Of a DNA stretch of 64,000 nt, positions 2,052 to 61,252 are shown one piece after another. Within the stretch, counting starts at the first letter, position 1, and every line of letters starts with the position of its first letter. Origin of the DNA: Haliotis cracherodii (taxonomy: Eukaryota); contig NW_027266264.1 in assembly GCF_022045235.1 (NCBI RefSeq), positions 81,158,001-81,222,000 of the forward strand, given 5' to 3'. Position numbers and translations under genes: made by a program. A model generated the notes under the pieces. That model was not told the origin of the DNA. It saw only the letters and a list, made by a program, of their open reading frames with translations, and did no database searches.

Positions 2052-3276
2052 TGTTTCTACTCCAATGGTTTCAAGGTTTAAATGTAATTGTGAGATAGTG
2101 TGAAATGTTGATGACAATGAGTTGATGGTAAAATACAAAACAATATTGTGTCACCTTTCATCAGTGTTGAACTTTTTTCTCTTCTTACCTTGAGGCAGGG
2201 AGATATTGCCATGGGGGAAACGTGTTGTTCCAGATCTTGTGTATTGGGACAAGTAAATTTTAGTTTTGTTCTTCTCAAATTCTGATAAGGACATTATATT
2301 TATTTAGTGGGTTTATGAACTGAAATTAGACATTTTTTTTTTACCATTTTATTGTTTCGCTGACAAGTCTTTGATAGGCATTTCGAAGTTGGAAGAACAT
2401 TTCATGGATAGCATTTCTTTTATTCTGTTTTACAATTAGGTGAAATGAAGAAACCTAGAGATTTTATCATGGCTGTTCATAACAAATGGCGATTTTACAT
2501 ATAAAAATCGTTTTCTAATGAAAAAAAGCAATAAAATATCTTTCTGTATTTTGCTAAGTTAAAACATGTTGTTTTCATTCATTTGTAACAGTACTAATCT
2601 GAACATGCTGAAAGCTGAAAATGACTAAATATGGTTTTTCGACCAACTACCTTCAATTTTAGGCCCAAAAGTTTGTAAACCAACTAACAGAAAATAAAAA
2701 GGATTTTTTTTGGGGGGGGGGACAAATGATTTGGTGCAATCATTTTCATAAATATTATTCAAAGACTTATGAGTGTTAGCATGGTTACGAAGTTAATCAG
2801 CCTCGTCAACAAGGAGTGCTGAAACATATAATACAGGTGTATGTTGTGCAACTGATTGTACATAGACAATGTAATAAAATATTTTACATAGTTGTTTGAT
2901 TTGTGTTCTGGAAACCTGAGAAGGAGACGGCATATTGACCTGGATAATCATGTCATTCTGTCCCAACAATACACTCTCTGTACACTGACCAACTGGCAGG
3001 AAACACATCTACTGGGTGGATGTATGTTGGGATTTGGATCAGGTTTGGTTTAAATCTGCTTAAAAAGTATCTGACTTCTATCATGGTGTGTTGTCAATAT
3101 ATGGGATGAAAGCCCAAGATGACATCAGTGTTTCCGCTGGCTCTTTACATTACTAGTCCCATTGGACTGGCATCTCAAAAAAATACCAGACCCCTCCAGT
3201 TTGTGTCAGTCCCAACTTTGAACACACACCCAAAACATTATCTGGTTTTTATTCTGCCAACATCATGTTCAATTCT

Positions 3277-3735
3277 CAATCTCATTAAAATCAGATCTTA
3301 GTTCTCGCTGCCGCTAAACAAAGATCTGAGGACATCCCATTACGGGTCACGTCAGACCGACCTTGCGCGAACTTTGACCGACCAATGGAATGACCAATCA
3401 GAAGGCAGATTTCACGTGCCTTACGGCACAAATTTCAAATTGGCGACTATATGCTTCGAAACACATTTTGACAAATTCTCAATTACAAATTTGAAACCTG
3501 AACAAAAAAGACATTCTGGAATGGATTATAGATGGTCTAGATTGTAAGGATTCAGTCGTCAAACCCGTAACTATCGTTCAGGATGCCCCATGTTAAAGTT
3601 TTCGAGATTGCATGATTAGAAATCACATTCCGACTGTCACTTTCATAATCTGGTAAGCGACGCACTACTGAATGGGATGTCTTCAGATCTTTGTTTAGCG
3701 GTAGCGAGAATTAAGGTCTGATTTTAATGAGATTG
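3277..3735. mobile_element. Non-autonomous DNA transposon (AcademH-like MITE), ~65-bp TIRs, 10-bp TSD
   Basis: TIRs CAATCTCATTAAAATCAGATCTTAGTTCTCGC.../...TTTTAATGAGATTG; perfect TSD GTTCAATTCT at 3267-3276 and 3736-3745; internal RecQ-like peptide relic. Superfamily assignment is inference. Confidence 0.85.
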
Positions 3736-4429
3736 GTTCAATTCTCTGTATGTTGATGGCTGCCATATTAAAAAATGTTATCCCTGAAATAACTTAGATC
3801 TACACCTCATTCGCACAAATTTCAATCACAGTTTTCTCTTTTTCCCCTGGAATATTTCACTTGTGTTTGAGACAAAGTTGCTACAAATTGCTATTTAACC
3901 TCGAAGAAAAGCAAAATGTTATTTCCTTGCTCAAAACATAGACAATGGGACCTTATCCACAGGGACTGGCAGTCCCATGAATTACTGCACTAAGCCTAAT
4001 TTTATTGGTAATAAACTGGTAATCACCGTTAAACCAGAACACTGACAATGGTCGTAAAAAAGGAAAGGGTACTAAGCCGACAGACCCACATCCAAGGGAC
4101 ATAACTCTGCACAGTGAATTGTGGCAGTAAGGTGTAAAAGTATTGCAAAGACTTACTATATTTGTTAGTCAATGAAATGGTAATGTGGTAGTGGGGAGTT
4201 TCAGTGAGTGTTGGATAATGAGAGGATACTCTCACCTGAACTCACAAATGAACCAATTCACCAAGGGTGTTTATTTACCTCAAAATATGTTGGGTCATAC
4301 AAGATGTCAACATTTCTGATTTTTTCAATTGACAATAAATATTACCAACTTGGATCATAGAGGCTTCACTAGGTAAGTAACATCTAGGTCATCACAGTAT
4401 AACACAAAAAACAGACGATATATAGACAA

Positions 4430-5509: not shown

Positions 5510-5657
5510 ATCCATGAAAATCCGGGTCAGAATAGGTCTTCAGCAACCTATGCTTGCTGTAAAAGGCAACTGTGCTTGTCGTAAGAGGCGACTAACAGGA
5601 TCGGTTGGTCAAGCTCACTGACTTGGTTGATGCATGTCATCGTATCCCAATTACGTA
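5510..5657 (+). mobile_element. Retroposon family A (structured non-tRNA head), 3'-truncated
   Basis: Aligns by eye to copies at 10029, 30405, 32938, 46148. Confidence 0.85.
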
Positions 5658-9971: not shown

Positions 9972-10028
9972 GTGTGCTTTATGCTCATATTATGTGAAGT
10001 CCATGAATTTTATCTAATCAATTAATAT

Positions 10029-10268
10029 CTGAAGACCCGGGTTAGAATGGGTCTTCAGCAACCCATGCTTGTTGTAAGAGACGACTATGCTGGTTGTAAG
10101 GTTCGACTAACGGGATTGGGGGTGCTCACTGACTTGTTTGTGGCTTGTCATCCTATCCCAACTGTTCATGATGTCTATCATTGGATTATCAGGTCCAGAC
10201 TTGATTATTTACAGACCACCTTGACATAGCTGCAATATTGCTGTGTGTGGTGTTAAACAACAAACAAA
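10029..10268 (+). mobile_element. Retroposon family A copy in ABHD17 intron
   Basis: TGAAGACCCGGGTTAGAATGGGTCTTCAGCAACCC head through ...GTTAAACAACAAAC tail. Confidence 0.85.
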
Positions 10269-23246: not shown

Positions 23247-23425
23247 GTTTGTTTGGTTGGTTGTTCTTTAACGCCGGACTATATACCAGCAATATGACAG
23301 ACGGTCTGTAAATAATCGAGTCTGGACCAGACAATCCAGTTATTGACATCATCTGACCACCCGATTCATTTTCTCGCCTTCTTAAGACAAGCATTGGTTG
23401 CTTGGGACCTAAATCCCCACGGGTC
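23247..23425 (-). mobile_element. Retroposon family A, variant subfamily, internally deleted
   Basis: Reverse complement aligns to family A; head GACCCGTGGGGA..GGTCCCAAGCAACC. Confidence 0.8.
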
Positions 23426-23826
23426 TTGGTCACAGCTCAAGTGGGATGTTCCTTATAGAAATGTTTGGATGATTATGAAAGTAGGTCCAGGATAAAGTTG
23501 AGATTTCTTCTGTTCCACTGTTGATAAAAGCGGCGTAAAACCATACTCACTCACTGTTACGTTATAACGTTATACGGGTGTCTCAGTCATTTTGCCGTGC
23601 AGAGTTGCATCCCTTAGGCGTAACAGAAACTAATGATGGCGTGTTCGAATCCCAGATTCGCCCTGTTTATGTCTCTAGGTTTATCAATACCATACCCGTG
23701 TTCGTGGGTTCCACGAAATATGTAGAAGACCTTTCCTCCCAAATCAAGCTGACACGCCGTGATATAACATTCACATACTCACTCATCCATTTGTTCACAC
23801 GTACACACACTACAATGTAAATAGCT

Positions 23827-29563: not shown

Positions 29564-30404
29564 CAAGCCAGTTCGTGCCAGTCTCATATCAGTTGTAAAC
29601 TGTAAAGGACAAACTATGACGTGGACCCTGCATCAACTTTATTAAGCAACACTTTTAGAAATTGTTTTGTGAGTTTTCAGATACGGTTCTTTTAATGAGA
29701 ACTAGACTTTGTTCATTTTACCACAGGCACCCTTTGGATTAATGACAATAATAAATATATAGGTAAAGCTAAATTGTGACACAAACGAGGATGTTCGAAG
29801 TTTTCCGTAACCTTTTTTAAAAAATATTTAAACATGAGCAAGTCTTTGACCCAAATTGATTTTCTTAGCAGATGTCGATAAAGGCAATACAAACGCGGTT
29901 AAAATCATTTTGGGTCACGCACATGCTCGTCAATAGATTTTCTATTGGGAACTGGGCTATATTAGCCATTCTTGTGTATTAGAACGCGCCAGATATAAAA
30001 GGGTAAGTTGCAAGAAAGACACAAACTAGATGCCAACCAATTGAACATGTCTGATTAATACCCTTACTTTCTTCCAACATTTTCCGTAGCTTACAATTTG
30101 CACATTTCTTCTCCTCGAGCTTTGATATAAACCATTTGAAAAAAGTTCAAATGATTTTATGATCACCATCACATCACGATAATCTCCGCCAAGTACAGAA
30201 TGTGTTTATCGTCATTGGTCGCGCATAGTGAAGCCAAGTACAAAGGTCGTCATTTATTGTAGTCAAAACCAGTATATTTAAAAAAACCTAAAATCTCATC
30301 AACTGTTATTTAAAACGTAAGATGTATATCTTGTAGATAGTTGTATTATTTATCTATTTGTACTTATAGATGTACTTGTAAATGTTGTGTCAGATACCAT
30401 CTAG

Positions 30405-30670
30405 GTTGGTTGGTTTGTTGTTTAACGCCGCACTCAGCAATATTCCAGCTATATGACGGCGGTCTGTAAAAAATCGAGTCTGGACCAGACAATCCAGTGA
30501 TTAATATCATGGGCATCGATCCACGCAATTTGGATCGATGACATGTATCAACCAAGTCAGCGAGCCTGACCACCCGATCCCGTTAGTCGCCTTTCACGAC
30601 AAGCATAGTCGATTTTTACGGCAAGCATGGGTTGCTGAAGACCTATTCTACCCCGGAACTTTCACGGGTC
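30405..30670 (-). mobile_element. Retroposon family A, full length
   Basis: Head GACCCGTGAAAG to tail AAACAACAAACCAACC; TSD AGATACYATCTAG (30392-30404, 30671-30683). Confidence 0.92.
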
Positions 30671-30718
30671 AGATACTATCTAGGGCAGTGCTGGGAAGCA
30701 GAGGTCGTATACCCGTAT

Positions 30719-30791
30719 CAATCTCATTAAATCAGATCTTAGTTCTCGGTTTAGCGACAGCGAGAACTAAGATCTGATTTTAATAAGATTG
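30719..30791. mobile_element. 73-bp minimal derivative of the AcademH-like MITE
   Basis: Same TIRs as 3277-3735 with no interior; 10-bp TSD ATACC(C/G)GTAT. Confidence 0.85.
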
Positions 30792-31241
30792 ATACCGGTA
30801 TTGGGTTGTCATGGGAACAGAGAACCAACTATATAAACTATTTTTTTGTTTTCTTACAGTACCTGCGATCAGTGAAGAGTCGTGTTCGGGTTTAGCTTAA
30901 TGGGCTGGGACAGGCTCGCAGTCACTCACTTACTTCAGATAGTTGTTCCCCCTAGATTAAGCTGGGACACGCAGATAATCGCAGTGTCCGAACGATCGCA
31001 TCCGAAAGTTGTAGAGATATGACAATCAGTATTAGGAGAAAATATACAGATAATCGACGTGAGGATTGTGAGAAAATGCAGGAAATACCAATTCCAAACC
31101 CACCTGTTCATAAAATTGACTTGTCCGACATTGCCTTGGTTAGATGCTATTCAGGGAGTCATCATTCTTATGCGGGTTAATATTTTTAAAGCTAGTACAT
31201 GTCCTCCTTAAAGAGGCAGCACATTATGTTCATATCTCATA

Positions 31242-32559: not shown

Positions 32560-33600
32560 TACATTGATACAGACGAGGCACTGTAGATGATTGAAAGCAG
32601 CATGGGGGATGTTGTTCCAAATGGCAAGGAAAGGTTGGACCAACTGAGCTAGCATTACCAACTGGTTCTGGTCCTGTCGTAGGCGTCAATCCATCTCATC
32701 CCAGACATGTTCTGTGGGAGAGAGGTCTGGAGAAACAGGTAGTCTGATACAACACGTGCAACATGTGGGCAGGCATTACCCTGCTGCAACGTGTCGTTAT
32801 GTCCCTGCAATTACACAAAGGGTAGATAGAACATGATCTCGAACGATGTCGTCCCGGTAGCGTACGCCATACAAATTGCCATTTACAATTATGAGTTCTG
32901 TTCTTTCATAAGTTGCGATGCCACCCCATACCTCACTATAGGTCTTCAGCAACCCATGCTTGCCGTAAAAGGCGACTATGCTTGTCGTAAAATGCGACTA
33001 ACGGGATCGGGTGGTCAGGCTCGCAGACTTGGTTGATGCATGTCATCGATCCCAATTGCGTGGATCGATGCTCATGATATCAGTCACTGGATTGTCTGGT
33101 CCAGACTCGATATTTACAGACCGCCGTCATATAGCTGGAATATTGCTGAGTGCGGCGTTTAACAACAAACCAACCAACCAAACCAACCATACCTCACTGC
33201 AGCCCCTAAACGGAAGCGTCGCTAGAACGTTCTCCTAGACGTCGGTAAACCCTGCACGACCACCAGCACTGCCCAGATGAAACCTGGGCTCATCTGTGAA
33301 CAGAATACTATCCGAGTCTTGTTTTCTGAACTTCATATGCCGTCTTCGCCAAGCTTGGCGTGCCTGACGGTGACAAGGAAGCAAAATTTGGAATATCGCT
33401 GGATGTCGGGGCTAGGTGTTGTGTTCCCTCAACCGGTTGCGTACGGTTCTGTGACTTATTGGTGTCAACTCAGGAATTCTCTGAGCTGTTAATTTGGCAG
33501 TTTGGTATCGATTCCGGAGAAACAGCAACCGAATATGGTTGTCTTATTGACGTGACGTCACAGTTGACGACCAGCCCATAATAAGTCACGAGTGTTGCCC
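32560..33600 (-). pseudogene. Decayed Tc1/mariner transposase, interrupted by a retroposon
   Basis: Ordered degenerate Tc1 motifs on -: ILFTDEPRF (~33279-33306), VWGGI (~32915-32930), QQGNACPH (~32764-32787), SPDLSPTEHVWDE (~32696-32733); stops and frameshifts; ends approximate. Confidence 0.85.
32938..33186 (+). mobile_element. Retroposon family A, 5'-truncated, inserted in Tc1 relic
   Basis: Perfect TSD CCATACCTCACT (32926-32937, 33187-33198). Confidence 0.93.
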
Positions 33601-35551: not shown

Positions 35552-37398
35552 TGTGTCGGCACAACCATGTGGTTCATCCTCTGTACAGAAGGTGTGTCGG
35601 CACAACCATGTGGTTCATCCTCTGTACAGAAGGTGTGTCGATACAACCATGTGGTTCATCCTCTAGTACAGAAGGTGTGTCGATACAACCATGTGGTTCA
35701 TCCTCTGTACAGAAGGTGTGTCGGCACAACCATGTGGTTCATCCTCTGTACAGAAGGTGTGTCGGCACAACCATGTGGTTCATCCTCTGTACAGAAGGTG
35801 TGTCGATACAACCATGTGGTTCATCCTCTGTACAGAAGGTGTGTCGATACAACCATGTGGTTCATCCTCTGTACAGAAGGTGTATCGATACAACCATGTG
35901 GTTCATCCTCTGTAAAGAAGGTGTGTCGATACAGTCATGTGGTTCATCCTCTGTACAGAAGGTGTGTCGATACAGTCATGTGGTTCATCCTCTGTACAGA
36001 AGGTGTGTCGATACAACCATGCGGTTCATCCTCTGTACAGAAGGTGTGTCGATACAGTCATGTGGTTCATCCTCTGTACAGAAGGTGTGTCGATACAACC
36101 ATGTGGTTCATCATCTGTACAGAAGGTATGTCGATACAGTCATGTGGTTCATCCTCTGTAAAGAAGGTGTGTCGATACAACCATGTGGTTCATCCTCTGT
36201 ACAGAAGGTGTGTCGATACATTCATGTGGTTCATCCTCTGTACAAAAGGTGTGTCGATACAACCATGTGGTTCATCCTCTGTACAGAAGGTGTGTCGATA
36301 CATTCATGTGGTTCATCCTCTGTACAGAAGGTGTGTCGATACAACCATGTGGTTCATCCTCTGTACAGAAGGTGTGTCGATACAACCATGTGGTTCATCC
36401 TCTGTACAGAAGGTGTGTCGATACAACCATGTGGTTCATCCTCTGTACAGAAGGTGTGTCGATACAACCATGTGGTTCATCCTCTGTACAGAAGGTGTGT
36501 CGATACAGTCATGTGGTTCATCCTCTGTACAGAAGGTGTGTCGATACAACCATGTGGTTCATCCTCTGTACAGAAGGTGTGTCGATACATTCATGTGGTT
36601 CATCCTCTGTACAAAAGGTGTGTCGATACAACCATGTGGTTCATCCTCTGTACAGAAGGTGTGTCGATACATTCATGTGGTTCATCCTCTGTACAAAAGG
36701 TGTGTCGATACAGTCATGTGGTTCATCCTCTGTACAGAAGGTGTGTCGATACAACCATGTGGTTCATCCTCTGTACAGAAGGTGTGTCGATACAGTCATG
36801 TGGTTCATCCTCTGTACAGAAGGTGTGTCGATACAGTCATGTGGTTCATCCTCTGTAAAGAAGGTGTGTCGATACTGGCATGTGGTTCATCCTCTGTACA
36901 GAAGGTGTGTCGATACAACCATGTGGTTCATCCTCTGTACAGAAGGTGTGTCGGCACAACCATGTGGTTCATCCTCTGTACAAAAGGTGTGTCGATACAA
37001 CCATGTGGTTCATCCTCTGTACAGAAGGTGTGTCGATACAGTCATGTGGTTCATCCTCTGTACAGAAGGTGTGTCGGCACAACCATGTGGTTCATCCTCT
37101 GTACAGAAGGTGTGTCGATACAACCATGTGGTTCATCCTCTGTACAGAAGGTGTGTCGATACAACCATGTGGTTCATCCTCTGTACAGAAGGTGTGTCGA
37201 TACAGTCATGTGGTTCATCCTCTGTACAGAAGGTGTGTCGATACAGTCATGTGGTTCATCCTCTGTACAGAAGGTGTGTCGATACAACCATGTGGTTCAT
37301 CCTCTGTACAGAAGGTGTGTCGATACAGTCACGTGACTGCCTTCATCCTCTGTACAGAAGGTGTGTCGATACAGTCACGTGACTGCCTTCATCCTCTG
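35552..37398. repeat. 41-bp minisatellite, ~45 copies
   Basis: GTGTGTCGATACAACCATGTGGTTCATCCTCTGTACAGAAG. Confidence 0.97.
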
Positions 37399-37849
37399 TG
37401 GCCATCTTGGCTTTCGTTTTAGCTGACAATATTCTCTACGGGATGTCTCAGTTTTCTGCGAACATTATTTGTCGTAAATGCAGCCTTTTCTTTAAAAGAA
37501 TTATCGTCCTTTCCTTGTTTGCTCATTCAACATTTCAACATCCTTCATCGTGGGGTCATTATCACAGAGACTGTCGGGCTGCAGCGTGTCATTAGCCGCT
37601 GTTCACGACACATGCTGCGTGTAAGATTCTGTCTGGCCGGAAGCGAGGACATAATAAAATATGAGGAGGATGTCCAGGTACCACTCAGTGCTTCACACTG
37701 CCTGACACTGCTATAATTCATATGAGATATCTTATAGTGGCAGCATGCAGGTACGGACAGAATACGTCGTTTTGAGTATTTCGTTCAGGACTGAGATGAA
37801 CTTCAGATCATTTGAAACTCACTCAAAGCCTTGGAACATGTCATGCTGT

Positions 37850-42660: not shown

Positions 42661-44287
42661 GACTGAATAAGCTCCTACATTCAGTGGGTGACATAACAAT
42701 GTGTATATCCATTAGAAACTTCTTGCTGTGGCTCAGCAGGACACGCTAAACTAATTATTAGTTTTCCATCAGTTTATGAAATTTTAACTATATAAAATGG
42801 TGTCATTCAATTGAAGGGGCGGTGGGGTAGCCTACTGGTTAAAGCGGCGCTTATCGCGCCTGAGGCCCGGGTTCGATTTCCAACATGGGAACTATGTGTG
42901 AAGCCTGTTTCTGGTGTCCATCGCCGTGATTTTACTCTCATTCAGATGTCAAATATGATCTGTGCATTTTTGGCATCAGCGGGTTCAACAAGTGTAGAAG
43001 ACGAAGAGCAACGCCGTTTACATGAGCTGCGTCAGGCTGACCGTCATTACATCGATGTTGCTGGTTTCTTTCACGCCCGAGGCCATGGTTGGCCGAGCCA
43101 CCGACATTCGCTGTACGGAGTTGCGTCCCTTTGGCGTGACATACTCATAGGATTGTTGGTTCGAATTCCAGATTCACCCTAACATGATTTCTGGTTTGTA
43201 TGCACCATACCCATAGGTTTAACCTACATCACTTCGGGCTTTACTCTTAGATTAATCTGACACACCATGGTATAAATGAAATACTGTACTTCGTTTTTTC
43301 ACGCTATGGCGCGCAATCATCATACCCAACAAGTAACAATTACATCGGTTCTAGGTCATTACCCATGCATAAAACACCCCACCATGAGAAGACAGCACGA
43401 TCACCCGACATTAAGCGTACACATGCCCAAAATGATGTGATCAGCATCTTTCTCCGTGCGCTCCACGAGATCAGAGGCTGAGACAGGCTGTGTCGTATTT
43501 GTATTGAAATTTCCTTCCTTAAGACTGAAGCTCCGATTATTTACAGTGGACGTTAAATATGTACAAGAATCCTATAACGAGCTCTCCGACAACAAAGAGA
43601 CTATCGTGTACCAAAATCAGATTTTCTTCAGCCCAAAATCAATACACAGCAATTTAAGATTGAGATAACGATCTCTGATAGATGTGTATTTTAATTACAG
43701 GATTTCCTTTGCCTTTTTGTAGCCAAAATTGAATAAATAGTTCACATTCACTAATAATTCTTTGATCGATTTAACAAAAGGGCGATGATGTTAGTGCTAT
43801 CCAGTTTAAACACACGTATCTCTACGACAGGCTGCTTTAATTCCCTTTGCTTTGTTGGTTTTACAGCATCTCCTAATTTCCTGCTGGCATGCCAAACAAC
43901 CCACAAACAACGTGTTGTTCATATACTAGACACACATCGCACCTGGGACATGACCCACATGTTTGTTGTCTTTCATATTCCTTGAAAAAGAAGTCCCACA
44001 TCTCTAACAGCAGCGGGTTTCTGGGACACCTTGAAGTTGCTATTGCTAGGAAACACGAATGACGTGCACATGTGGTCTCCTAAATGCTAGCAAATATTTA
44101 ATTGTCGATGCTAGGTAGGGCCAAGTTAATAATAAAAAGATTGATGTGCCATAGACAATTGCGTTTTTTTCATACGAACCTAACACAGTTTAACTTCCAA
44201 ACGGAAAGGGGTAACTTAAGGAACAGCAATATTTTACACAGGGAAGTATCTAGCAACTGTACTTAATCCAAGTGTCAGAGCGTTAAC

Positions 44288-46071
44288 CATGGTGTGTATG
44301 AAAGCATGTGAAGGTTGGAATCTATGGCGTGTAGACAAGCATGTGGAGGCGGGAATCCATGGCATGTACACAAGCATGTGGAGGCGGGAATCCATGGCAT
44401 GTACACAAGCATGTGGAGGCGGGAATCTATGGCGTGTATGCAAGCATGTGAAGGTGGGAATCTATGGCGTGTATGCAAGCATGTGAAGGTGGGAATCCAT
44501 GGCGTGAACACAACCATGTGAAGGTGGGAATCTATGGTGTGTACACAAGCATGTGAAGGTGGGAATCTATGGCGTGTACACAAGCATGTGAAGGTGGGAA
44601 TCTATGGCGTGTATGCAAGCATGTGAAGGCGGGAATCTATGGCATGTACACAAGCATGTGAAGGTGGGAATCTATGGCGTGTACACAAGCATGTGAAGGT
44701 GGAAACCCATGGCGTGTACACAAGCATGTGAAGGTGGGAATCTATGGCATGTGCACAAGCATGTGGAGGTGGGAATCTATGGCATGTACACAAGCATGTG
44801 GAGGCGGGAACCTATGGCATGTACACAAGCATGTGAAGGTGGGAATCTATGGCATGTACACAAGCATGTGGAGGTTGGAATCTATGGCATGTACACAAGC
44901 ATGTGGAGGTGGGAATCTATGGCATGTACACAAGCATGTGGAGGTGGGAATCTATGGCATGTACACAAGCATGTGAAGGCGGGAACCTATGGCATGTACA
45001 CAAGCATGTGAAGGTCCGAATCTATGGCATGTAAACAAGCATGTGAAGGTGGGAACCCATGGCATGTACACAAGCATGTGAAGGTGGGAATCTATGGCAT
45101 GTACACAAGCATTTGAAGGTGGGAATCCATGGCATGTATGCAAGTATGTGAAGGTAGGAATCCATGGCATGTACACAAGCATGTGGAGGTGGGAATCCAT
45201 GGCGTGTACACAAGTATGTGAAGGTGGGAATCTATGGCATGTACACAAGCTTGTGAAGGTGGGAATCCATGGCATGTACACAAGCATGTGGAGGTGGGAA
45301 TCCATGGCGTGTACACAAGCATGTGAAGGTGGGAATCCATGGCATGTACACAAGCATGTGAAGGTGGGAACCCATGGCATGTACACAAGCATGTGGAGGT
45401 GGGAATCTATGGCGTGTACACAAGCATGTGAAGGTGGGAATCTATGGCATGTACACAACCATGTGAAGGTGGGAATCTATGGCATGTACACAAGCATGTG
45501 GAGGTGGGAACCTATGGCATGTACACAAGTATGTGAAGGTCGGAATCTATGGCATGTACACAAGCATGTGGAGGTGGGAATCCATGGCGTGTACACAAGC
45601 ATGTGAAGGTGGGAATCCATGGCATGTACACAAGCATGTGAAGGTGGGAACCCATGGCATGTACACAAGCATGTGGAGGTGGGAATCTATGGCATGTACA
45701 CAAGCATGTGAAGGTGGGAACCTATGGCATGTACACAAGTATGTGAAGGTCGGAATCCATGGCATGTACACAAGCATGTGGAGGTGGGAATCTATGGCGT
45801 GTACACAAGCATGTGAAGGTGGGAATCTATGGCGTGTACACAAGCATGTGGAGGTGGGAATCTATGGCGTGTACACAAGCATGTGAAGGTGGGAATCCAT
45901 GGCGTGTACACAAGCTTGTGAAGGTTGGAATCTATGGCGTGTACACAAGCTTGTGAAGGTGGGAACTCATGGCATGTACACAAGCATGTGGAGGCGGGAA
46001 TCCATGGCATGTACACAAGCATGTGGAGGTGGGAACCCATGTCATGTATACAAGCATGTGGAGGTGGGAAT
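44288..46071. repeat. 35-bp minisatellite, ~51 copies
   Basis: ATGGCATGTACACAAGCATGTGAAGGTGGGAATCT. Confidence 0.97.
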
Positions 46072-46147
46072 AGTCAAAATCATCAAAGATATCAAACACG
46101 ACAGAACATTGCAAACAAATGCCTCAGGTTTATTCAATATCAGCAGC

Positions 46148-46413
46148 CCCCTGAAGATTCCGGGGTAGTATGGCCTTCAGCAACCCATGCTTGTCGTAAA
46201 AAGGCGACTATGCTTGTAGTAGGAGAAGACTAACGGGATCGGGTGGTCAGGCTCGCTGACTTGGTTGATGCATGTCATCGATCCCAATTGCGAGGATCGA
46301 GGCTCATGATGTCAATCACTGGATTGTTTGGTCCAGACGATCATTTACAGACTGCCATCATATAACCAGAATATTGCTGAGAGTGGCGTCAAACAACAAA
46401 CCAACCAACCAAG
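46148..46413 (+). mobile_element. Retroposon family A, full length
   Basis: Perfect TSD CAATATCAGCAGC (46135-46147, 46414-46426). Confidence 0.92.
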
Positions 46414-47939: not shown

Positions 47940-48175
47940 TTTTTTTTAGTTGTTTAACCCTGCAGTCAGCAATATCCCAGCAATATGACTTGGGTCTGAA
48001 AATAACCGACTCTGAAAAGACATTCCAGTAATTGACATCATAAGCATTGATCCATACAATATAGGATACAATGATATGCAATAAACCTAACATGAACCCC
48101 TGATCCATAAAGTCACCTCTTACAACAAGCACAGATTGCTGGGGACCTATATTCTTACCCAGAATCTCCATGGGC
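47940..48175 (-). mobile_element. Retroposon family A, old variant copy
   Basis: Head GCCCATGGAGA..GGGTAAGAATATAGGTCCCCAGCAATC on -. Confidence 0.75.
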
Positions 48176-48232
48176 ATTGAAGTAACTTGTGGCCATGTCT
48201 AACCACGTAAAGGGTCCTATTTCCGCAGCCTC

Positions 48233-56357: not shown

Positions 56358-56754
56358 GTCAGAGTTCATTCTAGATTTGTTAAGTTTATGATGAGGCATG
56401 AAGGTGATAAGGCGAAGTACACCCATTAATATGATAGTTACACACTTGTTTTCGTTTGTCGAACCCAGTCTAACCAGTGAATAACAGCTTCATCTTACTC
56501 CTCATTCCAGGCTTCAAGTTTTCACATTATTCTTCATCACAAGCAGGGTTTGACATTTCATCATTATATGCTATTATATTTTCATCACCCCAGTATGCTC
56601 TATTTCTTTTAAAAACATGTGTTTCTATAACTTACTTTATCGTCATTAGCACTGAATGGCGACTATATGAATTTATGAATGTAATATTTTTAACTAATCC
56701 TGTCTCACACCATGCATTTCTCATTCTTCTTTCGATCCTAAGTTGAAATGTGCC

Positions 56755-58192
56755 TAACACACCTAGCATCACCATTGTTCACCCTCACACACCTAGCATC
56801 ACCATTGTTCACCCTCACACACCTAGCATCACCATTGTTCACCCTCACACACCTAGCATCACCATTGTTCACCCTCACACACCTAGCATCACCATTGTTC
56901 ACCCTCACACACCTAGCATCACCATTGTTCACCCTCACACACCTAGCATCACCATTGTTCACCCTCACACACCTAGCATCACCATTGTTCACCCTCACAC
57001 ACCTAGCATCACCAGTGTTCACCCTCACACACCTAGCATCACCATTCTTCACCCTCACACACCTAGCATCACCATTGTTCACCCTCACACACCTAGCATC
57101 ACCATTCTTCACCCTCATACACCTAGCATCACCGTTGTTCACCCTCACACACCTAGCATCACCATTGTTCACCCTCACACACCTAGCATCACCAGTGTTC
57201 ACCCTCACACACCTAGCATCACCATTGTTCACCCTCACACACCTAGCATCACCATTGTTCACCCTCACACACCTAGCATCACCATTGTTCACCCTCACAC
57301 ACCTAGCGTCACCAGTGTTCACCCTCACACACCTAGCGTCACCATTGTTCACCCTCACACACCTAGCATCACCATTGTTCACCCTCACACACCTAGCATC
57401 ACCATTGTTCACCCTCACACACCTAGCATCACCAGTGTTCACCCTCACACACCTAGCATCACCATTGTTCACCCTCACACACCTAGCATCACCATTGTTC
57501 ACCCTCACACACCTAGCATCACCATTGTTCACCCTCACACACCTAGCATCACCATTGTTCACCCTCACACACCTAGCATCACCACTGTTCACCCTCACAC
57601 ACCTAGCATCACCATTGTTCACCCTCACACACCTAGCATCACCAGTGTTCACCCTCACACACCTAGCATCACCAGTGTTCACCCTCACACACCTAGCATC
57701 ACCAGTGTTCACCCTCACACACCTAGCATCACCATTGTTCACCCTCACACACCTAGCATCACCATTGTTCACCCTCACACACCTAGCATCGCCATTGTTC
57801 ACCCTCACACACCTAGCATCACCATTGTTCACCCTCACACCTAGCATCACCATTGTTCACCCTCACACACCTAGCATCACCATTGTTCACCCTCACACAC
57901 CTAGCATCACCGTTGTTCACCCTCACACACCTAGCATCACCATTGTTCACCCTCACACACCTAGCATCACCATTGTTCACCCTCACACACCTAGCATCAC
58001 CATTGTTCACCCTCACACACCTAGCATCACCATTGTTCACCCTCACACACCTAGCATCACCATTGTTCACCCTCACACACCTAGCATCACCGTTGTTCAC
58101 CCTCACACACCTAGCATCACCAGTGTTCACCCTCACACACCTAGCATCACCATTGTTCACCCTCACACACCTAGCATCACCATTGTTCACCT
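56755..58192. repeat. 30-bp minisatellite, ~48 copies, FKBP8 intron
   Basis: ACCTAGCATCACCATTGTTCACCCTCACAC. Confidence 0.97.
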
Positions 58193-59066: not shown

Positions 59067-59154
59067 CCTGGGACCTGGCAGTGTCTTTGATGGAGACAGG
59101 AGAGCACTGTGAACTCATTACAGCAGCTAAATATGCATTTGGAGCCACCGGCAG
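59067..59154 (+). CDS. FKBP8: FKBP8 exon (FKBP domain)
   Basis: AWDLAVSLMETGEHCELITAAKYAFGATGR; ttcttcctccAG / GTATGG; phases 1/2. Confidence 0.93.
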
Positions 59155-61252
59155 GTATGGGAGTTGTCCTGGCTTCCGATCACTTAGTGTAGCAGTGTCT
59201 GCCAGAGTTACCTAACCTTGACGTAGTGGTATGGAGGTTGTCCTGGCTTCCTATCGCTTAGTGTAGCAGTGTCTGGCAGAGTTACCTAACTTTGATGTAG
59301 TGGTATGGGGGTTGTCCTGTCTTCCGATCGCTTAGTGTAGCAGTGTCTGGCAGAGTTACCTAACTTTGATGTAGTGGTATGGAGGTTGTCCTGGCTTCCG
59401 ATCGCTTAGTGTAGCAGTGTCTGGCAGAGTTACCTAACTTTGATGTAGTGGTATGGGGGTTGTCCTGGCTTCCGATCGCTTAGTGTAGCAGCGTCTGCCA
59501 GAGTTACCTGACCTGGATGTAGTGGTATGGAGGTTGTCCTGGCTTCCGATCGCTTAGTGTAGCAGTGTCTGCCAGAGTTACCTAACCTTGACCTAGTGGT
59601 ATGGCGGTTGTCCTGGCTTCCGATCGCTTAGTGTAGCAGTGTCTGGCAGAGTTACCTAACCTGGATGTAGTGGTATGGGGGTTGTCCTGGCTTCTGATCG
59701 CTTAGTGTAGCAGCGTCTGCCAGAGTTACCTGACCTGGATGTAGTGGTATGGAGGTTGTCCTGGCTTCCGATCGCTTAGTGTAGCAGTGTCTGCCAGAGT
59801 TACCTAACCTTGACGTAGTGGTATGGAGGTTGTCCTGGCTTCTGGTCGCTTAGTGTAGCAGTGTCTGCCAGAGTTACCTAACCGTGACCTAGTGGTATGG
59901 GGGTTGTCCTGGCTTCCGATCGCTTAGTATAGCCATGTCTGCCAGAGTTAGCTAACCTGGATGTAGTGCTATGGAGGTTGTCCTGGCTTCCGATCGCTTA
60001 GTGTAGCAGTGTCTGCCAGAGTTAGCTAACCTGGATGTAGTGCTATGGAGGTTGTCCTGGCTTCCGATCGCTTAGTGTAGCAGTGTCTGCCAGAGTTACC
60101 TGACCTGGATGTAGTGCTATGGAGGTTGTCCTGGCTTCCGATCGCTTAGTGTAGCAGTGTCTGCCAGAGTTAGCTAACCTGGATGTAGTGGTATGGAGGT
60201 TGTCCTGGCTTCCGATCGCTTAGTATAGCCATGTCTGCCAGAGTTAGCTAACCTGGATGTAGTGGTATGGGGGTTGTCCTGGCTTCTGATTGCTTAGTGT
60301 AGCAGTGTCTGCCAGAGTTACCTGACCTGGATGTAGTGCTATGGAGGTTGTCCTGGCTTCCGATCGCTTAGTGTAGCAGTGTCTGCCAGAGTTAGCTAAC
60401 CTGGATGTAGTGGTATGGAGGTTGTCCTGGCTTCTGGTCGCTTAGTGTAGCAGTGTCTGCCAGAGTTACCTAACCTTGACCTAGTGGTATGGGGGTTGTC
60501 CTGGCTTCCGATCGCTTAGTGTAGCAGTGTCTGCCAGAGTTAGCTAACCTGGACATCGTGGTATGGGGGTTGTCCTGGCTTCCGATCGCTTAGTGTAGCA
60601 GTGTCTGCCAGAGTTACCTAACCTTGACGTAGTGGTATGGAGGTTGTCCTGGCTTCCGATCGCTTAGTATAGCCATGTCTGCCAGAGTTAGCTAACCTGG
60701 ATGTAGTGGTATGGAGGTTGTCCTGGCTTCTGATTGCTTAGTGTAGCAGTGTCTGCCAGAGTTACCTGACCTGGATGTAGTGCTATGGTGGTTGTCCTGG
60801 CTTCCGATCGCTTAGTATAGCCATGTCTGCCAGAGTTACCTGACCTGGATGTAGTGCTATGGAGGTTGTCCTGGCTTCCGATCGCTTAGTATAGCCATGT
60901 CTGCCAGAGTTACCTGACCTGGATGTAGTGGTATGGGGGTTGTCCTGACTTCCGATCGCTTAGTGTAGCAGCGTCTGCCAGAGTTACCTGACCTGGACAT
61001 CGTGGTATGGAGGTTGTCCTCGCTTCCGATCACTTACGATCGCTTAGTGTAGCAGCGTCTGCCAGAGTTACCTTACTTGGATGTAGTGGTATGGAGGTTG
61101 TCCTGACTTCCGATCACTTACGATCGCTTAGTGTAGCAGCGTCTGCCAGAGTTACCTTACTTGGATGTAGTGGTATGGCGGTTGTCCTGACTTCTGATCG
61201 CTTAGTGTAGCAGCGTCTGGCAGAGTTACCTAACCTTGACATCGAGGTATGA
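59155..61252. repeat. 74-bp minisatellite, ~28 copies, starting exactly at the FKBP8 donor site
   Basis: GTATGGAGGTTGTCCTGGCTTCCGATCGCTTAGTGTAGCAGTGTCTGCCAGAGTTACCTAACCTTGACGTAGTG. Confidence 0.97.

What the first reader, a model, noticed from the sequence alone, without database searches (positions are those of the whole stretch)
30590..30670. Retroposon family A has a non-tRNA 5' head with covarying pseudoknot-like pairings (candidate ribozyme or structured RNA)
Seen: family A copies (5510, 10029, 23247, 30405, 32938, 46148, 47940) share the SINE-type 3' tail and several have TSDs, but I find no Pol III A/B boxes. Most start at nearly the same point. The head can form CCCG(U)/(A)CGGG, GGG(G/U)U/(A)ACCC and GUCG-loop-CGAC helices, plus a crossing pairing UGAAGA/UCUUCA. 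In the copies at 23425(-) and 48175(-) both strands change together, to UGGGGA/UCCCA and UGGAGA/UCCCCA, i.e. compensatory A-U to G-C. The GUCG/CGAC module is tandemly duplicated in several copies. Established: some non-LTR elements define their 5' ends with HDV-like, hammerhead or twister ribozymes. I could not fit this head to those folds. Inference: a selected RNA structure, possibly an unclassified self-cleaving motif.
Basis: partly seen in the sequence, partly recalled or inferred. Interest (0 to 1): 0.7.

Follow-up and report, generated by a model that had tools for sequence, protein, structure and literature searches.

The report
Double-knotted RNA heads jumping genes, viruses
A very common jumping element in this animal genome starts with a 70-95-letter stretch whose paired changes point to a doubly knotted RNA fold, also present in the tails of unrelated viruses; it is likely a roadblock to the cell's RNA-chewing enzymes that would set the element's start, not a self-cutting RNA.

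Summary
The element is a ~267-bp SINE flanked by target-site duplications (>42,000 head matches), most likely the published 'LP-SINE' (PMC4758252), whose head was proposed to be a promoter. The same motif occurs in about 20 other repeat families, in 20 of 20 intact LINEs here, in the 3' UTRs of six RNA-virus records (twice in tandem) and in one DNA virus. Compensatory changes support two pseudoknots (90% paired against 70% shuffled). No Rfam match. New here: in this genome's LINEs an HDV-like ribozyme sits directly upstream and is kept in 30 of 30 copies picked on the motif alone. So the motif neither cuts at its own edge nor starts transcription there, yet SINEs without a ribozyme start 2 nt before it. 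An exonuclease block (xrRNA-like) fits best (0.47, untested); a translation or protein-binding role is the main rival. An earlier AI note reached a similar reading on another genome.

The parts
30404..30670 (-). Full-length SINE copy (LP-SINE type), first base G at 30670, tail of AAC/AACC repeats
30671..30682 (.). Target-site duplication, 5' side (12 bp, one mismatch to 30392-30403)
   Evidence: read directly
30392..30403 (.). Target-site duplication, 3' side
   Evidence: read directly
30576..30670 (-). Structured head (two predicted pseudoknots, module duplicated)
30652..30668 (-). Pseudoknot 1 stem 1 (30668-30665 with 30655-30652), single-U loop at 30664
   Evidence: innermost pair G-C 17, C-G 11, A-U 3 of 33 (register fitted)
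30637..30663 (-). Pseudoknot 1 stem 2, 7 bp (30663-30657 with 30643-30637); two pairs are mutated in this copy; conserved AGAAU linker at 30649-30645
   Evidence: 7 of 7 pairs show double changes
30624..30636 (-).
   Evidence: outer pair kept in 17 of 18 with four pair types; distal helix p=0.003
30586..30622 (-). Two tandem GUCG-loop-CGAC hairpins (30622-30608 degenerate, 30600-30586); 7-nt loop fits a T-loop pattern (pattern recalled)
   Evidence: invariance partly imposed by my search patterns
5510..5656 (+). Copy with head and part of body, no tail
10025..10268 (+). Diverged copy, stem 1 eroded
23247..23426 (-). Old-subfamily copy with internal deletions
32938..33179 (+). 5'-truncated copy with target-site duplication
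46146..46413 (+). Full-length copy with target-site duplication
47940..48176 (-). Old-subfamily copy

Best explanation
The SINE head is a conserved RNA module, predicted to fold as two adjacent pseudoknots, that likely blocks 5'-to-3' exoribonucleases (XRN1/XRN2), so that read-through host transcripts would be trimmed to 1-2 nt before its first stem and then copied by a partner LINE. Shown: the motif, its covarying helices, the sharp 5' end, its presence in LINE 5' UTRs and viral 3' UTRs, and an HDV-like sequence kept upstream of it in this genome's LINEs. Inferred: the 3D fold, nuclease resistance, and that the 5'-OH left by the upstream ribozyme keeps XRN off the LINE RNA. In viruses it would protect a 3' subgenomic RNA, as known xrRNAs do.
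For: RNA-level function: 7 viral records, 6 of them RNA-virus-like, with the motif 6-125 nt after the last stop codon and in tandem in L242 and L340; known xrRNAs lie in viral 3' UTRs. Covariation: 90.4% paired against 70.4% shuffled, 0 of 500 shuffles as high, slid controls 30-51%; cognate-versus-swapped test p=5e-5. 5' end 2 nt before stem 1 in 26 of 50 copies with a duplication. A second family with a different body also loses conservation 0-1 nt before stem 1 (49 copies). Xrn1 halts 1 nt before the coremin hairpin. With an HDV-like ribozyme upstream, 0 of 20 and 0 of 30 LINE copies start at the motif. That shows the reverse transcriptase reads through the motif, and it is what a 5'-phosphate-dependent exonuclease predicts but a cutter or promoter does not. 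Class 3 xrRNAs also use a pseudoknot, an AG-containing linker and a T-loop.
Against: No nuclease assay and no 3D ring shown. The connectivity matches none of classes 1-3 or coremin. The LINEs keep the motif intact although their end is set by the ribozyme and none is trimmed to the motif, so end-setting cannot be why they keep it; a second role is needed. My guess of a loop-to-U docking pair failed: the loop base varies A/U while the U is fixed. 13 of 50 duplications end 3-8 nt upstream and 11 of 50 closer than 2 nt. A purine first base also fits a transcription start. Small-RNA reads were too few at the head to test.
Confidence: 0.47

Rival explanations
1. The module is a cap-independent translation enhancer or a ribosome/protein dock (like a 3' CITE, or like the Alu domain that brings a SINE to ribosomes making LINE protein); the SINE's start is set by something else.
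For: It is kept downstream of a ribozyme that leaves an uncapped LINE RNA, in LINEs whose ORF2 N-termini are 56-100% identical. It lies in 3' UTRs of tombus-like viruses and about 140 nt before a start codon in a DNA virus. Ribozyme-cut RNAs support cap-independent translation (abstract). Many unpaired bases are conserved, which suggests a binding surface.
Against: It does not explain why SINE families with different bodies start at the motif's edge. No match to any Rfam family. It is compatible with the best explanation as a second role.
Confidence: 0.27
2. The module is a new class of self-cleaving ribozyme that cuts 1-2 nt before stem 1.
For: Sharp 5' end; conserved unpaired bases; known ribozymes occur in UTRs of linear RNA viruses and at LINE 5' ends. 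In the LINE the bases before the motif are paired in the HDV helix, which could mask a cleavage site (inference).
Against: 20 of 20 and 30 of 30 LINE copies keep the 58 nt upstream; 468 of 554 keep an exact junction. Viral contigs run through the site, and a cut would detach the 3' end. The ribozymes in the section read lie in UTRs before ORFs or in tandem pairs. No ribozyme model matches the head. The leader bases differ between families.
Confidence: 0.12
3. The head is an internal DNA promoter ('LINE promoter', Matetovici 2016).
For: Published proposal, stated there as untested; it replaces tRNA heads in some SINEs; the first base is a purine.
Against: Compensatory base changes and presence in RNA viruses point to RNA. 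LINE copies never start at the motif, as daughters of an internal promoter would.
Confidence: 0.07

Closest known systems
LP-SINEs (Hdi_LP, Hmi_LP, Lsa_2, Sgl_LP) and the ~70-bp 5' domain of Nimb-17_LMi, I-3_DR, RTE-9_CPB (Matetovici 2016, PMC4758252; section 10, passages and part 1 of supplement file 4 read)
   Same: Non-tRNA head shared with LINE 5' ends. The scallop head labelled 'Nimb-17 homology' carries the same core and, by eye, the same helices with other pairs. The Hmi_LP consensus is 255 bp.
   Different: The paper proposes a promoter and reports no structure, virus link or upstream ribozyme in what I read. The Haliotis consensus is in a figure I could not see, so identity with Hdi_LP is inferred.
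Class 3 xrRNA of plant viruses (PMC12397905, passages; PMC8374639, first fifth)
   Same: Short first stem at the 5' end, pseudoknot, AG-containing linker before the pseudoknot's 3' strand, T-loop-like loop, position in viral UTRs.
   Different: In class 3 the T-loop is inside the apical loop of a P1-P2 stem-loop. Here it lies 3' of the first pseudoknot, inside a second one. Ring and resistance untested.
HDV-like ribozymes at LINE 5' ends (Pr77 of ingi/L1Tc cited)
   Same: Small portable 5' module shared by unrelated LINE clades. A separate HDV-like sequence sits directly upstream in this genome's LINEs.
   Different: The head itself lacks the HDV helix order and matches no HDV model.
s2m element (bioRxiv 10.1101/2020.06.29.177030, search listing and abstract start only)
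   Same: Small conserved RNA element shared by RNA viruses and animal genomes.
   Different: No Rfam match to this motif; s2m is a single stem-loop (recalled).

Membership tests
LP-SINE | ~70-bp head homologous to the Nimb-17 5' domain | tested here: met
   By-eye match to the scallop 'Nimb-17 homology' block; a head with that block's sequence (L156) scores 27.6 bits as a 5'-cut match
LP-SINE | Variable target-site duplications and tandem-repeat tail | tested here: met
   71 of 124 full-length copies with a duplication of 7 bp or more
LP-SINE | Identity with the Hdi_LP/Hmi_LP consensus | not testable with these tools
   The consensus is in a figure; supplement file 1 was not searchable
tRNA-derived SINE | tRNA-like head with A and B boxes | tested here: not met
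   ARAGORN negative; no exact boxes
xrRNA (any class) | Halts Xrn1 in vitro at a defined site | not testable with these tools
   Needs an assay
xrRNA (any class) | Pseudoknot near the protected 5' end | tested here: met
xrRNA (any class) | 15-16-nt ring around the 5' strand | not testable with these tools
   No RNA 3D tool; feature
xrRNA (any class) | Located in viral UTRs or intergenic regions | tested here: met
   7 viral records
xrRNA class 1/2 | Three-way junction with double pseudoknot | tested here: not met
   Supported helices form two H-type pseudoknots in series; feature
xrRNA class 3 | P1-P2 stem-loop with T-loop in the apical loop, J1/2 docking, AGY motif | tested here: not met
   Order differs; docking-pair guess failed
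HDV-like ribozyme (the SINE head) | P1-P2-P3-L3-P1.1-P4-J4/2 order with G1-U wobble | tested here: not met
   No Rfam HDV match at E up to 10; covarying helices differ
HDV-like ribozyme (58 nt upstream in the LINEs) | P1, P2, P3, 7-nt L3, G1-U wobble, C-U-A-A junction | tested here: met
   P1 337 of 343 pairs, P2 342 of 343, P3 145 of 147, G1-U 47 of 49; three HDV-type models are the only hits, best E 0.0024, below gathering score; cleavage untested
Hammerhead, twister, twister-sister, pistol, hatchet | Match to the family model | tested here: not met
   No such hit in the window copies or in 14 homologous loci
3' cap-independent translation enhancers | Stimulates translation of uncapped RNA, binds eIF4F or ribosomes | not testable with these tools
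   No Rfam match; needs an assay

The most novel reading that the evidence does not exclude
A new class of exoribonuclease-resistant RNA, the first cellular one, swapped among LINE clades, SINEs, RNA viruses and a DNA virus, that lets promoterless SINEs get their exact 5' end from the host's own decay enzyme and so reach on the order of 100,000 copies.
Probability: 0.42. Interest if true: 0.92.

Novelty: new variant of a known kind. Interest (0 to 1): 0.8.

Why it matters
It would answer how SINEs without Pol III boxes get a precise start, and overturn the 'LINE promoter' reading. A 2021 review says cellular xrRNAs were still to be found. Whatever the function, this is a 70-nt structured RNA shared by animal retrotransposons and viruses with no Rfam family, and three short in vitro assays would sort the rivals. 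The ribozyme-plus-motif tandem in the LINEs supplies a built-in control.

Tried and rejected
Rfam on the window copies and on 14 homologous loci: only miRNA/snoRNA-type noise. Single-sequence folding of the window head is not better than shuffles (z +0.9); 2 of 4 homologues reach about z -2; pseudoknots are not modelled there. By-eye fits of the head to HDV, twister, pistol, hatchet and hairpin folds (features recalled) failed against the covarying helices. A docking pair between the loop and the single U was rejected. One search counted a structure that was off by one column; one search is the corrected count. The automatic register fit misplaced about 10 of 33 rows by eye, so its counts are descriptive. 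No RNA holder listed on record. Small-RNA reads were too few at the head (5, 43, 3 reads; 9, 112, 13). Looser viral patterns gave mostly chance hits. No close RTE relative of L168 in this genome. Paper searches found no description of the fold or function: motif strings, LP-SINE names, xrRNA with retrotransposon or transposable, xrRNA with virus terms, ribozyme terms, s2m terms. Figures, subscription papers, Repbase and Dfam were not searchable. The partner LINE with the SINE's exact tail repeat was not found.

Full report
1. The observation. The copy at 30670-30404 (minus strand) is a 267-bp element between 12-bp target-site duplications. The genome holds at least 5,579 candidates; a pattern for the first pseudoknot matches 42,078 times against 430 for its control; a covariance model finds 103 heads in 800 kb of unselected DNA. 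All seven listed copies are found. The 5' end is sharp: 53 of 68 near-full-length matches start at positions 1-3, and the duplication ends exactly before the first G in 36 of 71 copies that have one, out of 124 examined. Anchored on stem 1, the end lies 2 nt upstream in 26 of 50 copies, closer in 11 and further in 13. There is no tRNA and no exact Pol III box.

2. What the family is. Matetovici 2016 (PMC4758252; section 10, passages and part of the supplement read) describes LP-SINEs in abalone, periwinkle, oysters and scallops, with a ~70-bp head shared with two Nimb LINEs and one RTE, and proposes an untested promoter role. The scallop head in the supplement has the same core and, by eye, the same helices with other base pairs. 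This family is therefore most likely the abalone LP-SINE; the Haliotis consensus itself was in a figure I could not see.

3. The motif elsewhere. With viral and genome-contig hits these gave 148 distinct heads, 80 of them one family, and about 20 non-viral clusters with the motif. Some head LINE ORFs: L168 has one endonuclease-RT frame, L281 and L289 an ORF1 plus an endonuclease ORF2. In viral contigs 5 of 7 hits to a 16-base pattern carry the upstream parts that were not searched for; a looser pattern added 3 among 29 hits. These are seven distinct records. Six are RNA-virus-like by RdRp or capsid domains (the long ORF of L242 has no Pfam hit), with the motif 6-125 nt after the last stop codon and in tandem in L242 and L340. 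One is a 212-kb DNA virus, between two genes. Held-out members score 28-63 bits (one 5'-cut copy 19); 10 of 19 chance hits score 14-21 bits and 9 are not listed. Hosts are unknown.

4. The fold. In 33 family representatives, helices were tested by swapping partners between families. A MAFFT alignment of 18 sequences (17 of the 33 plus the window copy; rows with inserts or a poor fit were dropped, and starts were set on a fitted anchor) gave RNAalifold a 7-bp helix with double changes at all 7 pairs and a new 4-bp helix. Together 90.4% of cells pair against 70.4% in shuffles, 0 of 500 as high; slid controls give 30-51%. The first stem covaries at its innermost pair (fitted). The result is two H-type pseudoknots in series, the first with a single-U loop and an AGAAU linker, the second with a small hairpin in its last loop. 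That hairpin's invariance was imposed by my patterns; in the LINEs its loop and the following bases vary. Nothing in Rfam 15 matches.

5. The natural experiment. I searched the genome with a related endonuclease (122 matches) and fetched 20, most chosen for long ORF2 frames. All 20 carry the motif in the 5' UTR; the two scanned have endonuclease, RT and RNase H-like domains, and 4 of 20 match the SINE tail at E 1e-5. Their 5' end is not at the motif: all 20 share 58 further bases, and the duplication sits there in 14 of 20. Those bases fit HDV-type models (best E 0.0024, below gathering score) and keep all HDV helices. Of 554 LINE-type motifs 468 keep the exact junction, and 30 of 30 copies picked on the motif alone keep 53-62 upstream bases. 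Three inferences follow. The reverse transcriptase does not stop at the motif's edge, so SINE RNA really begins there. The motif does not cut at its edge, or the ribozyme would be lost. It does not start transcription there, or some LINE copies would begin at it.

6. Mechanism. What makes a 5' end at the motif only when no ribozyme lies upstream? A 5'-phosphate-dependent exonuclease stopped by the fold does, since HDV cleavage leaves a 5'-OH that XRN1 does not take (established knowledge, recalled). This also fits the viral position and the tandem copies. Class 3 xrRNAs use a pseudoknot, an AG-containing linker and a T-loop (PMC12397905, passages), and Xrn1 stops 1 nt before the coremin hairpin (PMC10520033, passages). 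Against it: no assay, no ring shown, a connectivity unlike known classes (PMC8374639, first fifth), a failed docking guess, and the LINEs keep the motif without ever being trimmed to it, which asks for a second role such as translation or protein binding. Odds: exonuclease block 0.47, translation or protein dock 0.27, new ribozyme 0.12, promoter 0.07. Ribozymes do occur in linear RNA-virus UTRs (PMC13725137, abstract and section 13), and pairing of the leader in the LINE could mask a cut, so that rival stays open.

7. Novelty. The SINE family and the shared head are in print; the fold, the viral link and the ribozyme-plus-motif tandem were not found in ten paper searches or in passages of a 2024 bivalve SINE survey (PMC11481361). 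PMC5786205 (first fifth) did not bear on the head. Figures, subscription papers, Repbase and Dfam were out of reach. An unreviewed AI note on another genome gives a similar reading; I had stated mine before seeing it, and it is not independent evidence. Verdict: a real, selected RNA structure of an unlisted class, most likely working like an xrRNA; interest 0.8.

Noticed in passing
L498-L547 (LINE 5' ends, e.g. L501:2129-2186): A minimal 58-nt HDV-like ribozyme with almost no P4 heads a group of I/Nimb-type LINEs; the 5' module is nearly identical among LINEs whose ORF2 N-termini are 56-100% identical, suggesting 5'-module swapping.
   Followed up: partly
G000:C2 about 20.9-21.75 Mb, also C3 about 30.3-30.8 Mb and C1 about 38.6 Mb: Dense clusters of full-length LINE heads, some LINEs nested in other LINE ORF2s; possibly piRNA-cluster-like or heterochromatic traps.
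   Followed up: no
L002:1674-1704 (SINE body): A pile of ~31-nt antisense small RNAs (63 molecules in X22, 9 in X23) and a smaller sense pile at 1662; piRNA-sized, runs from a related organism, one study.
   Followed up: no
L277, L281, L283, L289: 4 of 21 hits in prokaryote genome assemblies carry the full or partial motif, two with LINE ORFs, so they are probably host-DNA contamination.
   Followed up: partly
L124-L240 (largest metagenome family): Here the motif sits in front of what looks by eye like a tRNA-derived head, as in scallop MESC SINEs; ARAGORN calls no tRNA.
   Followed up: partly
L074; G000:C1 about 1.95 and 3.48 Mb: The first ~45-55 nt of the head have been amplified into tandem arrays.
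   Followed up: no
window 35552-37399, 44287-46071, 56753-58191, 59154-61251: Long minisatellite arrays with units of about 60-82 bp.
   Followed up: no
window 30710-30801: A ~90-bp imperfect inverted repeat next to the SINE, with related pieces at 3276-3330 and 3680-3736; possibly a MITE.
   Followed up: no
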